Shown here piece after piece: positions 6,201 through 62,490 of a DNA stretch of 64,000 nucleotides (the first letter of the stretch is position 1; each line of letters opens with the position of its first letter). Position numbers and translations under genes: made by a program. Origin of the DNA: Phoronis australis (lineage: Eukaryota > Animalia > Phoronida); the NCBI GenBank assembly GCA_002633005.1, contig NMRA01000241.1, positions 481,974 through 545,973 on the forward strand, written 5' to 3'. The notes beneath the pieces are model-generated. The model had not been told where the DNA came from. It was given only the letters and a program-made list of their open reading frames with translations, and made no database searches.

Positions 6201-9200
6201 GGATAAAAAAGAAAGATCAAGTTTTGGTATTCTCTTAGGTTACTAAAATAGTTGTTTTCGTAACGGTGTATTTTAGCTTTGATTTCTATTCCCCCAGCCC
6301 TCAGTAACTGTGCATTTGTATTCCCCAGCCCTCAGTAATTGTGCATTTGTATTCCCCAGCCCTCAGTAACTGCATTACTATTCCTCCAGCCCTCAGTAAC
6401 TGTGCATTACTATTCCTCCAGCCCTCAATAACTGTGCATTTCTATTCCCCCAGCCCTCAGTAACTGTGCATTACTGTTCCCCCAACCTTCAGTAACTGTG
6501 CATTACTGTTCCTCCAGCCCTCAGTAACTGTGCATTACTATTCCTCCAGCCCTCTGTAACTAAGCATTACTATTCCTCCAGCCCTCAGTTACTGTTCATT
6601 ACTGTTCCTCCAGCCCTCAGTAACTGTGTATTACTGTTTCCCCCAGCCCTCAGTAACTGTGCATTACTATTCCTCCAGCCCTCAGTAACTGTGCATTACT
6701 ATTCCTCCAGCCCTCAGTAACTGTGCATTACTATTCCTCCAGCCCTCAGTACCTGTGCATTACTATTTTTCCAGCCCTCGGTAACTGTGCGTTACTATTC
6801 CCCCAGCCCTCAGTAACTGTACATTACTATTCCTCCAGCCCTCAGTAACTGTGCACTTATTCCCAATAAGCGTACATTACTCTCCCCCGCCTGCATGGAA
6901 CTGTGTATGAATGTTTTCATGGCCCCCAGTAACTAAGCTTCAGTGTTCTCCTAGCCCTCTTTGTCAAGTGATGTAGTCGTCCCAACTGTCAACTTCCTGT
7001 ATGTTTGTTTCTGCAAACTCTCACTGAGCATGCATGACAGCGAGTCGCTCAATTTTCAGCGATTGGTTGTGGAGTCTTGGTTGCGGCATACTTCCAAGTG
7101 GCGTTCTGGATGACTGCGGCCGAACGTCAGACAAGGAAGATCCGTTTGGCTTACTACAAGAGTATCCTACGACAGGACGTAGGTTGGTTCGATGTCAACG
7201 AGGTGGGAACCCTCAACACACGACTGTCAGAGTGAGTGACAAAACCCCAGCTAGGAAGTAAGATGCCTTGCTTTCTCACCCGTCATCTGTTTAGAAACTT
7301 CCTTTGGTTTAGACTTGATTAGCAATTTCTAAGCCAAGGGATAACAAATAATTAAGGATAATAAATTTGCTATTGCTTGAGTACTATGTTAATATGTTGA
7401 TTTATGAGAAATAAAATGTGTTTGTGAGAACAGAATTGCAGTGCATGAAAAAAGACATGTTGCTTGTAAAAAGGGATTATAGCTTTCATGAATAGCTTTC
7501 GTGAAAATAAATGGTAGCTGATGGAGCAGGCGCACGGTGTGTGAGGAAAGTTTACAGCAATGATGTGTTGATTATTGAAAAGTGTGCTTTCTGGCATTTT
7601 ACTTTCAGTGACATCACAAAAATCCATGATGGTATTGGTGACAAACTAGGAAGCGTCTTTCAAGGATTGGCTGGGACCATTGCTGGCTTCGTCATTGGCT
7701 TTGTTAAGGGTTGGCAACTGACTCTGGTCATTCTAGCAGTCAGCCCAGCTCTTGTTATCTCAGCTGCCATCATGTCAAAAGTAAGCACATCTGCCTTGAA
7801 AAATGTAGATGTTTATGGGCTCACAGAGATGCAAAAGTTTGGGAATGTTGATAGATTTTTTGTGTGCTGTTATGGAAATTTGAGACCGTCTTCAGCAGAG
7901 AGACAAGTGTACTTCACTATTCCTTGTTACAGATCACTTCATCTGCTACGAGCTCAGAGTTAACTGCGTACGCTAGGGCTGGTGCAGTAGCTGAGGAGGT
8001 GTTTAGTGCCATCAGAACAGTGGTGGCATATGGCGGGCAGGAGAAGGAGTGTGAACGGTGAGATAGTGCGACCGGCGAGATAGTGCGACCGGCGAGATAG
8101 TGCGACCGGCGAGATAGTGCGACCGGCGAGATAGTGCGACCGGCGAGATAGTGCGACCGGCGAGATAGTGCGACCGGCGAGATAGTGCGACCGGCGAGAT
8201 AGTGCGACCGGCGAGATGGCAAATTGTCATTTTTTACTTTAAACATCAATTTAAAAAAACTTCAGCCGAAATGGTGTTTGAATTGTACAATTCTGTACTG
8301 AAATTTATTATAAATTGATTTAGGTTGTCTTGGTTATAGCTTGTACAATGCAAATGAATTGAAATGCCCAGATTAATTCTAGTGACATTGTTAACACAGA
8401 ACCAATCTCTCATTGGAAGTCGTCGTCATACGTAATGCTCATCTTTTTGAGGTGGTCTGTGGTGATGCAGTGTTTGCCTCTTGAGATCTTGGCTTACTAC
8501 ATATACATGACCGTGTAGACTACTTACTGTTCATACTTATACACTACTATGTTTTTATTGTGCTCTACATATTGTGAACAAGTTGTCATCTTCTTCTATC
8601 TTACACTGCTACTCTCATGCTGTAGGTATTGTGGCAACTTGGGTGACGCCAGGAAGGCTGGCATTAAGAAAGGTGTCGTCTCTGGGCTTGGCATGGGCTT
8701 TGTATTCGTCACTATGTTCGCCTGTTATGCCCTTGGCTTTTGGTACGGCGGTACTCTGGTGCAGGAGCAGCCTACAATCTACACCCCAGGTGTTATGATG
8801 ATTGTGAGTAGTCACACTTGAATGTTAGTTTGTAATGTCCAATTGCTAATTATGGAATTGAGTTCGCACAATTGTCGGTCAGGTGCTCACCACAGCGGTC
8901 CGGCTTTGAGGCCTGCACACACCTGGTATGCTCTCTGGCCCAGTTTTGAGGTCTGTGTTCGCCTGGTATGCTCTCTGGCCCAGCCTTGAAGCCTGCGTAC
9001 ACCTGGTGTGGTCTCTGGCCCTGCCTTGGGGCCTTCGCATCCCTGTTGTGGAATCTGGCCTGGAGCACCTGCAGTTCTGGAAGATAAAACTGAGATAAAT
9101 TTGCAAATGGGTTTCATATATGTCGTATATTTTCACAGATGCTCATCTACCTTCGCAGGTTTTCTTCTGTGTGTTGATTGGTGCTTTTGGCCTCGGTCAG

Positions 9201-61700: not shown

Positions 61701-62490
61701 TAATTCAGATTGCTAAACCACCGTCTCGGAGTCCCAGCGTCGTTGCACTCATTGTGATCATCGATCTTTTTCTAAAAGTCGGGGAATCGCGCGTTTCCTT
61801 AGCACTAGGTGCTAAATCTTCATTCTTTAAAAGTCGGGGATGGGCGCTTAACCGAGAGGTGGGCGCTTAACTGGAAATCTTCAAAAATCGCAGGGGGGCG
61901 CTTAACCGAGCAGTGGGCGGTTAAATCGAAAATCCACTTAAAGTCGGGGATGGGCGGTTAACTGAGCATGGGCGTTAACCCGAACGATTATGGTATATTA
62001 CAAGTGCTGGACCTTTTGCAAATTCTTCGAAATGACATATTTACTGAAGTCAAGAGTCTGGACTGTAGTACTTGATTGCATTTGAATTGTCGTTTTCCAG
62101 GCCTACATTCATTCATTGTCGTTTTCCAGGCCTACATTCATTCATTGTCGTTTTCCAGGCCTACATTCATTCATTGTCGTTTTCCAGGCCTACATTCATT
62201 CGCGAATGCGAGCAAAGACTTCAGAATTCCTGAAAGTCCTCAACAGGGCTCGTCCTGAAAATAAGAAGAAAGAAAAGAAAACCATCACGTAAGTTTGGGA
62301 TTAGGTGCGATTGTGGTGACTTTATCATTGTGGTAACTAATTTATTCATCATTTTGTATAAAATATGTGAATCACGCAAATATTGAGGAAACGATGATGC
62401 TTTATGGAATTGCTCGCTGCTCCAATTTTTATCTGTATTGCAGTTTTGTTGTTCTTATTTTGCAGGGGGCGCACATTTGTACAGAACTAG
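52702..62490 (+). CDS. ARPC2: Arp2/3 complex subunit 2 (p34-Arc), spliced, 300 aa
   Basis: Exons 52702-52775, 54523-54670, 54949-54994, 57404-57590, 58483-58576, 58733-58859, 60806-60906, 62188-62288, 62466-62490; total 903 nt. [10 protein letters not shown] start, [56 protein letters not shown]. Confidence 0.96.
53693..54240 (+). mobile_element. 5'-truncated Penelope-like element (GIY-YIG endonuclease C-terminus plus 3' tail)
   Basis: [30 protein letters not shown]…H…H…IKESLAI…LN with one internal stop (53918-53920). Confidence 0.8.
54118..54160 (+). ncRNA. hammerhead-ribozyme-like motif of the Penelope element
   Basis: CTGATGA (54124-54130), short TCT/AGA stem, GAAACGTT (54147-54154); stems imperfect. 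Confidence 0.5.
54523..54670 (+). CDS. ARPC2: ARPC2 exon 2
   Basis: [10 protein letters not shown]…[16 protein letters not shown]. Confidence 0.94.
54949..54994 (+). CDS. ARPC2: ARPC2 exon 3
   Basis: [15 protein letters not shown]. Confidence 0.9.
56350..57047 (+). mobile_element. interspersed repeat, Helentron-like family
   Basis: homologous to 40030-40645; ends in hairpin ACTTTGCGGA…TCCGCCAAGT plus A-run. Confidence 0.6.
57404..57590 (+). CDS. ARPC2: ARPC2 exon 4
   Basis: GYNVSLL…[14 protein letters not shown]…YRDDET. Confidence 0.94.
58483..58576 (+). CDS. ARPC2: ARPC2 exon 5
   Basis: [27 protein letters not shown]. Confidence 0.94.
58733..58859 (+). CDS. ARPC2: ARPC2 exon 6
   Basis: EFKEGRR…APQVLFS…NIGYITF. 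Confidence 0.94.
58945..59619. repeat. 337-bp tandem duplication split by a single N (likely assembly artefact)
   Basis: 58945-59281 vs 59283-59619, two differences seen. Confidence 0.85.
59800..60050. repeat. about 41-bp minisatellite
   Basis: TGTCACAAGCTGTCATGGCCCATTTAGATACTGTCATAACA. Confidence 0.88.
60806..60906 (+). CDS. ARPC2: ARPC2 exon 7
   Basis: VLYPRHTN…[12 protein letters not shown]. Confidence 0.94.
60878..60941 (+). repeat. 29-bp exon-end duplication at ARPC2 donor
   Basis: ACCTTCACTACCACATCAAATGTTCCAAG at 60878 and 60913. Confidence 0.9.
61826..61996. mobile_element. second copy of the same MITE-like repeat
   Basis: matches 1-156. Confidence 0.65.
62086..62201 (+). repeat. 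29-bp x4 perfect repeat of ARPC2 acceptor
   Basis: ATTGTCGTTTTCCAG|GCCTACATTCATTC. Confidence 0.93.
62188..62288 (+). CDS. ARPC2: ARPC2 exon 8 (acceptor ambiguous: four identical copies)
   Basis: [23 protein letters not shown]. Confidence 0.9.
62466..62490 (+). CDS. ARPC2: ARPC2 exon 9
   Basis: GRTFVQN*. Confidence 0.88.

What the first reader, a model, noticed from the sequence alone, without database searches (positions are those of the whole stretch)
8048..62201. Splice junctions repeatedly amplified into tandem arrays in all three genes
Seen directly: of roughly 80 mapped splice sites, 8 clearly (and a ninth probably) carry a tandem repeat whose unit is the exon-intron junction itself. 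ABCB1 donors at 8057 (17-mer), 12133 (39-mer), 13862 (50-mer) and 24491 (47-mer). NSUN6 donors at 36422 (66-mer), 39315 (28-mer) and probably 37342 (27-mer). ARPC2 donor at 60906 (35-bp period) and acceptor at 62188 (29-mer). The units are unrelated to each other, so these are independent events. They always extend into the intron and range from perfect to heavily decayed, so the process is ongoing. Inference: either a genome-wide high rate of short tandem duplication filtered by selection (wholly exonic ones are purged), or a splice-site-coupled duplication mechanism. Either way the organism must select the right site among many identical decoys. This is also the substrate for intron gain and intron sliding by tandem duplication. 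I do not know of a description at this density, but cannot search.
Basis: partly seen in the sequence, partly recalled or inferred. Interest (0 to 1): 0.85.

Follow-up and report, generated by a model that had tools for sequence, protein, structure and literature searches.

The report
Splice-junction minisatellites crowd three animal genes
In three neighbouring animal genes, nine exon borders have been copied as short repeats into the adjacent intron, and the RNA examined uses the copy next to the exon; this is a repeat type already known from lancelets and humans, here unusually dense, likely because random duplications survive longest where an exon anchors them.

Summary
Real, but a known kind. 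Eight of 80 splice sites in ABCB1-like, NSUN6 and ARPC2 genes are spanned by the end unit of a minisatellite (17-66 bp); a ninth (37342) is a decayed case. Such repeats are the lancelet "mirages" and the human F7, CBS and 6-16 VNTRs. This scan has noted them before in at least 24 other genomes. Within the window the excess is real: 8 of 33 intronic arrays against 1.6-2.2 expected (P 1e-4 to 1e-3). It falls to 8 against 3.5 (P 0.017) once arrays' general closeness to exons is allowed for, and the window was picked after the fact. Donors dominate (8:1). RNA reads at five tested sites show only the exon-adjacent copy, including two stop-free in-frame decoys; four ABCB1 sites were not tested. Only 3 of 9 arrays carry decoys identical to the real site. 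Best reading: frequent random tandem duplication, selection against exonic and harmful copies, and longer survival next to exons (a toy model gives 1.6-3.9-fold). A donor-side mutational bias is not excluded. No whole genome was held, so the decisive genome-wide test was not run.

The parts
8048..8217 (+). 17-bp x10 array; first unit spans ABCB1 donor 8057 (10 nt exonic); the 9 intronic copies are identical to each other and read GC, not GT
12115..12575 (+). 39-bp x~12 array; first unit spans ABCB1 donor 12133 (19 nt exonic); 10 copies keep AG|GTA but score 5.7-6.2 against 8.1; exon unit 70% like the others
13842..13986 (+). 50-bp x2.9 decayed array spanning ABCB1 donor 13862; decoys near dead (0.9, 0.8 against 5.9)
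24477..24616 (+). 47-bp x3 decayed array spanning ABCB1 donor 24491; decoys 7.4 and 4.7 against 11.7
36299..36479 (-). 66-bp x2.7 array spanning NSUN6 donor 36422 (58 nt exonic); one identical decoy at 36356 whose use would add 22 codons without a stop; 68 reads use the first donor, no decoy joint listed
37036..37366 (-). 27-bp x10 array starting 36 nt into the intron after NSUN6 donor 37342; the junction segment aligns to the unit with gaps (P 0.001), a probable decayed ninth case; 71 reads use 37342
38910..39339 (-). 28-bp x15.4 array spanning NSUN6 donor 39315 (25 nt exonic); 8 of 12 in-register copies have the same 9-base donor; 60 reads use the first, no decoy joint listed; array seen in intronic RNA reads of X6 and X7 with unit variants
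60878..60941 (+). 29 exonic nt repeated at 35-bp period across ARPC2 donor 60906; second copy ends without a GT
62086..62201 (+). 29-bp x4 perfect array spanning ARPC2 acceptor 62188; three identical upstream acceptors (62101 would add 29 codons without a stop); 232 reads join 60906 to the last copy; each unit carries a branch-point-like TTCAT at -19 and -15
228..29499 (+). ABCB1-like (P-glycoprotein) gene, 24 modelled exons, 5' end outside the window; linker region uncertain (micro-exon candidates, N gap)
34663..50520 (-). NSUN6 gene, 10 modelled exons; five junctions confirmed by RNA
52702..62490 (+). ARPC2 gene, 9 exons, 300 codons; last two junctions confirmed by RNA

Best explanation
Nine of 80 exon borders here carry a 'mirage' minisatellite that copies the border into the intron; these likely arise from ordinary short tandem duplications of DNA that happen to cover a border and likely pile up there because the exon shields them from deletion, while splicing in the RNA examined uses the copy beside the exon. 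Steps: (1) Shown: introns of this animal are rich in unrelated 12-74 bp arrays (33 in 48.8 kb). (2) Inferred: units are born by DNA-level slippage or break repair at no fixed position relative to the splice site, then expand and homogenise, leaving the exon-bearing end unit behind. (3) Partly shown: selection removes wholly exonic arrays, and likely also those whose copies out-compete the real site; no decoy scores above its real site. (4) Inferred from a toy model: deletions that would erase an array beside or across an exon border often hit the exon and are purged, so these arrays last longer. (5) Shown at five sites: the exon-adjacent copy is used. Likely cause: exon definition or 5'-to-3' scanning, as shown for human F7. 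(6) Inferred: acceptor arrays are tolerated less often, which leaves the donor bias; the one that survived carries its own branch-point-like motif in each unit.
For: 33 arrays in 24 of 40 introns, 0.68 per kb. 0 wholly exonic arrays in the blind scan against 3.5 expected. Junction phase within the unit 0.32-0.89, not distinguishable from uniform, and every unit holds intron sequence, so spliced mRNA was not the template. Non-spanning arrays also crowd near exons: 18 of 24 within 300 nt against 10.8 (P 0.003). The toy anchor model gives both a 1.6-3.9-fold junction excess and 53-82% of arrays within 300 nt; observed 75%. Large indel alleles are seen in the same regions (27-bp insertion at 62380; loose ends at 35115-35122 and 36298). 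The exon unit is 82% and 70% like its copies at 8057 and 12133 while the copies are 100% and 88% alike, the edge effect described for BflGb6 (PMC3087553). At 8057 the exon keeps the Glu of human ABCB1 where the copies would read Asp. RNA: 232, 68, 60 and 71 reads at the exon-adjacent sites, no decoy joint listed; depth excess over the ARPC2 array at most 1.6% of exon depth.
Against: The observed excess (5-fold overall, 95% range 2.2-9.9; donors alone 7 against 0.8-0.9) is at or above the top of the toy model (3.9-fold), whose parameters are assumed and not measured. GC bias and the repeats visible by self-BLAST lift the expectation only to 2.2. Junction arrays are not visibly older than other arrays: identities 73-100% in both groups. 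At 39315 the exon unit is closer to the copies (88%) than they are to each other (78%). The model does not itself explain a donor excess over the null, only a lack of acceptors.
Confidence: 0.66

Rival explanations
1. Duplications are born more often at and just behind splice donors, through a transcription- or chromatin-linked bias in breakage and repair (for example at the exon's downstream nucleosome edge, or at R-loops where U1 binds). The splice site would then be a mutational hot spot.
For: Donors: 7 clear cases against 0.80-1.39 expected per side (P 1e-5 to 3e-4); acceptors are at expectation. Donor:acceptor 8:1 with the ninth case (P 0.04), 7:1 without (P 0.07). Non-spanning arrays within 150 nt also lean to the donor side, 8 against 4, with 3.2 expected each.
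Against: No fixed junction phase. Four arrays that start 25-38 nt from a junction were tested and three show no junction-derived unit (P 0.43, 0.67, 0.99). One window chosen after the fact. Survival bias and selection on acceptors predict a similar picture.
Confidence: 0.15
2. There is no genome-wide excess at all: a minisatellite-rich genome gives 2-4 junction arrays per such window by chance, and this window was noticed because it sits in the upper tail.
For: Under the strictest local null 8 are seen against 3.5 (P 0.017). 19 windows of this genome carry notes and none of the 8 listed of 12 matching notes reports this pattern. In the stretch much intron sequence is interspersed repeat that self-BLAST missed, so the true null is higher than 1.6-2.2.
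Against: P of 1e-4 to 1e-3 under four global nulls survives a 20-fold correction. All three genes carry cases. The donor-only figures are stronger still.
Confidence: 0.16
3. The arrays are kept by selection as splicing regulators (U1 sinks that tune intron retention or isoform output).
For: In NSUN6, introns with donor arrays carry intronic reads (up to 9.7-fold depth in X6 and 8.6 in X7 in intron 38400-39314), while the two array-free introns show 0 in their interior bins.
Against: Units are unrelated, many decoys have lost the GT or decayed, no decoy joint is listed, X8 shows no reads in that intron, only five introns are compared, and the hosts are housekeeping genes.
Confidence: 0.03

Closest known systems
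Amphioxus 'mirage' minisatellites (Adh3, globins BflGb6 and BflGb9, troponin C, PGBD5). PMC3087553 and PMC3902484, passages read; the original Adh3 paper PMC117041 was not held and is known to me only through these.
   Same: Tandem repeats whose end unit spans an exon-intron border; both donor and acceptor types; units of 10-72 bp at Adh3; regular splicing undisturbed; many but not all copies keep splice signals; inner copies homogenised with the edge unit left out; proposed substrate for intron gain.
   Different: Here nine cases lie in three adjacent genes of a probably different invertebrate, with a count against a null and an 8:1 donor bias; the passages read give no such count. Length polymorphism and somatic instability were not shown here.
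Human F7 intron 7 37-bp VNTR, with 6-16, CBS intron 13, lamin B2 and PDGF intron 4 minisatellites. PMC1557585; abstract, introduction and discussion read.
   Same: First monomer spans the donor; identical pseudo-donors follow; the most upstream one is used, by an oriented scanning or competition mechanism shown by mutagenesis.
   Different: Those are single scattered loci; 6-16 and CBS also use the next one or two pseudo-sites, which was not seen here at a threshold of 3 reads. The paper does not treat acceptor arrays such as ARPC2 62188.
Intron gain by tandem duplication (Rogers 1989 and later work as cited in PMC3087553; human internal tandem repeats, PMC2812944, passages read)
   Same: A duplicated stretch holding splice-like signals is the raw material.
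   Different: No new or shifted intron is shown in this window; the tested junctions are the exon-adjacent ones and the proteins align to their human counterparts across the stretches checked.

Membership tests
Mirage / junction-spanning minisatellite | Head-to-tail tandem repeat with a minisatellite-sized unit | tested here: met
   Periods 17-66 bp, 1.8-15 copies
Mirage / junction-spanning minisatellite | End unit contains both exon and intron sequence across an authentic splice site | tested here: met
   8 in register with 10-58 exonic nt; ninth by gapped alignment P 0.001; 5 of the 9 sites confirmed by RNA
Mirage / junction-spanning minisatellite | Extra copies lie in the intron and many, not all, keep GT or AG | tested here: met
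Mirage / junction-spanning minisatellite | Regular splicing to the exon-adjacent copy | tested here: met
   5 of 9 sites tested, no decoy joint listed. The 4 ABCB1 sites were not tested; presence of the two ARPC2 arrays in the RNA animals is unverified
Mirage / junction-spanning minisatellite | Copy-number polymorphism or somatic instability | tested here: inconclusive
   Unit variants in X6 and X7 reads and low-depth X1 contigs in the 28-mer array show sequence variation, not copy number
Mirage / junction-spanning minisatellite | Concerted evolution of inner copies with the edge unit excluded | tested here: inconclusive
   Met at 8057 and 12133, not at 39315, uninformative at 62188 and in arrays of under 3 full units
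Splice-site-coupled duplication mechanism (hypothetical) | Breakpoints at a fixed phase to the junction, or an exon-exon (spliced) template | tested here: not met
   Exon share of unit 0.32-0.89, KS P 0.32 with n=8; all units are exon-intron
Splice-site-coupled duplication mechanism (hypothetical) | Genome-wide excess at junctions among young duplications | not testable with these tools
   No whole genome held
Intron gain or sliding by tandem duplication | A new or shifted intron position relative to orthologues | not tested
   No orthologous genomic sequence was fetched

The most novel reading that the evidence does not exclude
In this lineage the 5' splice site is a mutational hot spot: transcription- or chromatin-linked breaks just behind exons seed tandem duplications at donors 5-9 times more often than elsewhere in introns, so that about one donor in five carries a copy of itself, and the genome is a natural library of thousands of decoy-site experiments and of incipient intron-sliding events.
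Probability: 0.13. Interest if true: 0.75.

Novelty: new member of a known kind. Interest (0 to 1): 0.3.

Why it matters
Single mirages are curiosities already in print. If the density seen here (8 of 40 donors, 1 of 40 acceptors) holds across the genome, this animal offers thousands of natural tests of how the spliceosome picks among tandem sites, and enough cases to ask why mirages arise, which PMC3087553 calls unclear. Survival beside exons and a donor-side mutational bias make different predictions for young against old duplications, so the question is testable with the assembly and population reads. If the excess vanishes genome-wide, the finding is only a minisatellite-rich genome.

Tried and rejected
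Whole-genome test: no genome held. A tenth case at ABCB1 acceptor 27849, suggested by lenient TRF (27795-27852), is rejected: junction segment against unit P 0.41. Arrays starting 25-38 nt from a junction (1473, 55020, 29104) are not decayed junction units (P 0.43, 0.99, 0.67). GC bias as the cause of the excess: non-spanning arrays are only slightly richer in GC than introns (0.407 against 0.381, P 0.054) and lift the expectation from 1.64 to 1.82. Assembly artefact: rejected for the five arrays laid against X1 contigs, though X1 may be the assembly's own sample; untested for the four ABCB1 arrays. Nonsense-mediated decay hiding decoy use: possible at 39315 (frameshift or stop) but not at 36356 or 62101, which are in frame and stop-free. 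Rows left out of the array count: of 43 clusters, two were merged into one (6292/6371) and I dropped two 54-mers inside an interspersed repeat (3, 61824), one beside the N gap (18487), three low-complexity tracts (39592, 39754, 44050) and three outside modelled introns (32151, 33920, 50757), leaving 33; the 338-bp pair at 58945 lies above the scanned period range. No RNA holder was listed by word index; the RNA runs came by species label. Papers PMC117041 and PMC2791625 were not held. Seven paper searches showed no genome-wide count of junction-spanning minisatellites; most subscription papers are not searched and no supplements were read.
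Full report
Setting. The window holds three intron-rich animal genes: an ABCB1/P-glycoprotein-like gene on + (228-29499, 5' end outside), NSUN6 on - (50520-34663) and ARPC2 on + (52702-62490). 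I mapped exons by eye and checked them in scripts: all 40 introns have GT-AG ends except one GC-AG (38239), and the frames are open. Single exons match ARPC2, NSUN6 and ABCB1 in solved structures. The ABCB1 linker is uncertain: an 11-nt micro-exon at 17117-17127 restores the frame, two 9-nt candidates are possible, and there is an N gap. True site numbers may therefore be 82-86, which would lift the expectations below by under 8%. No whole genome is held. Earlier AI notes call the animal a marine invertebrate; I did not test that.

The observation. TRF and an annotation-blind periodicity scan (the scan found 0, 1 and 0 segments in three block shuffles) give 33 arrays of period 12-74 that touch the 40 introns, after the exclusions listed under Tried and rejected. 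Eight span a splice site with at least 10 exonic bases, exactly as reported: donors 8057, 12133, 13862, 24491, 36422, 39315, 60906 and acceptor 62188. Each junction segment matches an internal unit better than all 3000 random segments. The ninth (37342) is out of register, but aligns with two gaps at P 0.001, about 0.02 after 21 tests; I count it as probable. The eight clear units are unrelated. DNA contigs of run X1 behave as real repeats make them: a break between 62115 and 62172, a 76-bp contig of about double depth at 36357-36432, pieces inside the 28-mer array, and an ungapped contig over the 35-bp pair. X1 may be the sample behind the assembly, so this excludes a scaffolding artefact but is not independent. 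Intronic RNA reads of other samples cover the 28-mer array (X6, X7) and the 66-mer array (X6-X8), with unit variants.

Decoys. Scored with matrices made from the window's own 40 donors and 42 acceptors, which favours the real sites slightly, decoys equal the real site in three arrays only: one at 36356, 8 of 12 in-register copies behind 39315, and three in front of 62188. At 8057 all nine copies read GC. At 60906 the second copy stops before the GT. At 12133, 13862 and 24491 they are weaker. None is stronger than the real site.

Which copy is used. About 18-19% of three raw RNA runs was laid. ARPC2: 232 reads (73, 44, 115) join 60906 to 62188, the last acceptor; no decoy joint is among the 15 rows shown, 12 rows were hidden, and depth over the array exceeds the exon-only expectation by at most 1.6% of exon depth. 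No intronic read shows that these animals carry the two ARPC2 arrays, and the 29-mer is perfect and may be young, so this test is conditional. NSUN6: 60 reads use 39315, 68 use 36422 and 71 use 37342; all 7 joint rows are shown and none is a decoy, at a listing threshold of 3 reads. Reads with a short overhang cannot tell the first donor from an identical decoy, but overhangs up to 75 bases were present. Use of 36356 (66 nt) or 62101 (87 nt) would be in frame without a stop, so decay cannot be what hides them. The four ABCB1 sites were not tested. Each unit of the ARPC2 array carries a branch-point-like TTCAT at -19 and -15 from the next AG (the yUnAy consensus is recalled), which would let the last acceptor work.

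More than chance? If a seed unit lands anywhere that touches an intron, 1.6 of 33 arrays should span a site with 5 or more bases each side; 8 do (P 1.2e-4). Excluding the repeats seen by self-BLAST and tilting for GC gives 1.8-2.2 (P 3e-4 to 1e-3). Non-spanning arrays also crowd near exons, 18 of 24 within 300 nt against 10.8. Restricted to that zone, with both corrections, the figure is 8 of 27 against 3.5 (P 0.017). Donors carry the excess: 7 against 0.8-1.4 per side; acceptors, 1, are at expectation. The window was chosen because the pattern was seen in it, and one search shows more interspersed repeat than self-BLAST found, so these P values are optimistic.

How it likely works. Birth looks like ordinary DNA duplication: units contain intron sequence, and the junction sits anywhere from 0.32 to 0.89 of the unit. 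Selection is visible in the lack of wholly exonic arrays (0 against 3.5; lenient TRF shows one in-frame 15-bp pair in the N-terminal exon at 672-702). Inner copies drift and homogenise while the exon's unit is held (8057, 12133). To explain the excess I modelled survival: deletions that would erase an array are tolerated only if they spare the exon and splice signals. With mean deletion 100-1000 nt and deletion:substitution loss ratios of 1-10, junction arrays are enriched 1.6-3.9-fold and 53-82% of other arrays fall within 300 nt of an exon; observed are 5-fold (range 2.2-9.9) and 75%. The parameters are assumed, and the donor-only excess lies above the model's top value, so a donor-side birth bias stays possible. 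The scarcity of acceptor arrays is likely selection: scanning from the old branch point would pick the first, wrong AG (inference from recalled 3' splice-site scanning, which PMC1557585 calls widely accepted).

What is known. My paper search found human F7, whose 37-bp VNTR spans the exon 7 donor and whose identical pseudo-sites stay silent through upstream-first selection; its introduction lists 6-16, CBS, lamin B2 and PDGF as further cases (PMC1557585; abstract, introduction and discussion read). Earlier scan notes pointed me to the term 'mirage'. Passages of PMC3087553 describe donor- and acceptor-spanning arrays in amphioxus globins and Adh3, undisturbed splicing, concerted evolution, an unclear origin, and an explicit intron-gain model; PMC3902484 adds troponin C and PGBD5. 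The scan itself lists 43 such notes in at least 24 genomes and 100 notes matching acceptor words in at least 22; two unchecked notes on annelids disagree on whether there is a genome-wide excess. In 7 searches I saw no published count against a null; the original Adh3 paper and supplements were not seen and may bear on density.

Verdict. Observation confirmed; new members of a known kind. What is added is a dense, donor-biased sample with a measurable excess and RNA evidence at five sites. Interest 0.3; the bold reading (donors as duplication hot spots) has probability about 0.13.

Noticed in passing
window 38400-39314 and 35578-36421: NSUN6 introns with donor arrays carry sense-strand intronic reads (up to 9.7-fold depth in X6, 8.6 in X7, 0 in X8 for the 28-mer intron), while interior bins of the two array-free introns show 0. 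Possible slower splicing or retention tied to an array allele; X8 has a different haplotype at several exon positions.
   Followed up: partly
window 44294-48555: About 4.3-kb element with 135-bp direct terminal repeats (44294-44428, 48422-48555) in an NSUN6 intron, same strand as the gene; by eye a decayed Ty3/gypsy-like LTR retrotransposon (label recalled, not tested).
   Followed up: no
window 58945-59619: 338-bp stretch repeated at 99% identity with a single N between the copies: probably an unmerged scaffold overlap, not a real duplication.
   Followed up: no
window 18487-18567: 37-bp repeat that starts right at the end of the N gap with a donor-like AG|GTAGG; the array may run into the gap and could be a further junction array of a hidden linker exon.
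   Followed up: no
window 15123-15131, 16502-16510, 17117-17127: Candidate micro-exons of 9, 9 and 11 nt in the ABCB1 linker; the 11-nt one restores the reading frame with or without the other two. Not checked in RNA.
   Followed up: partly
window 38239: NSUN6 has a GC-AG intron here, used by 134 reads.
   Followed up: yes
window 35590: Minor alternative NSUN6 acceptor upstream of 35577, 4 reads in X6 and X7.
   Followed up: no
window 3-157/61842-61996, 4578-4822/17498-17773, 40060-40626/56353-56910, 25679-26035: Short interspersed repeat families recur within the window; the 61842 family has very high summed depth in X1 contigs.
   Followed up: no
window 52600-52775: ARPC2 starts at 52702 and NSUN6 runs the other way from at least 50520, so the two likely share a bidirectional promoter; a first NSUN6 exon near 52600 was not modelled.
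   Followed up: no
window 32111-32717 and 33920-34503: Two of the longest arrays (32-bp x19, 39-bp x15) lie between the 3' ends of ABCB1 and NSUN6, away from any modelled splice site.
   Followed up: no
window 62380: An X1 contig carries a 27-base insertion relative to the window in the last ARPC2 intron, one of several large indel alleles.
   Followed up: no
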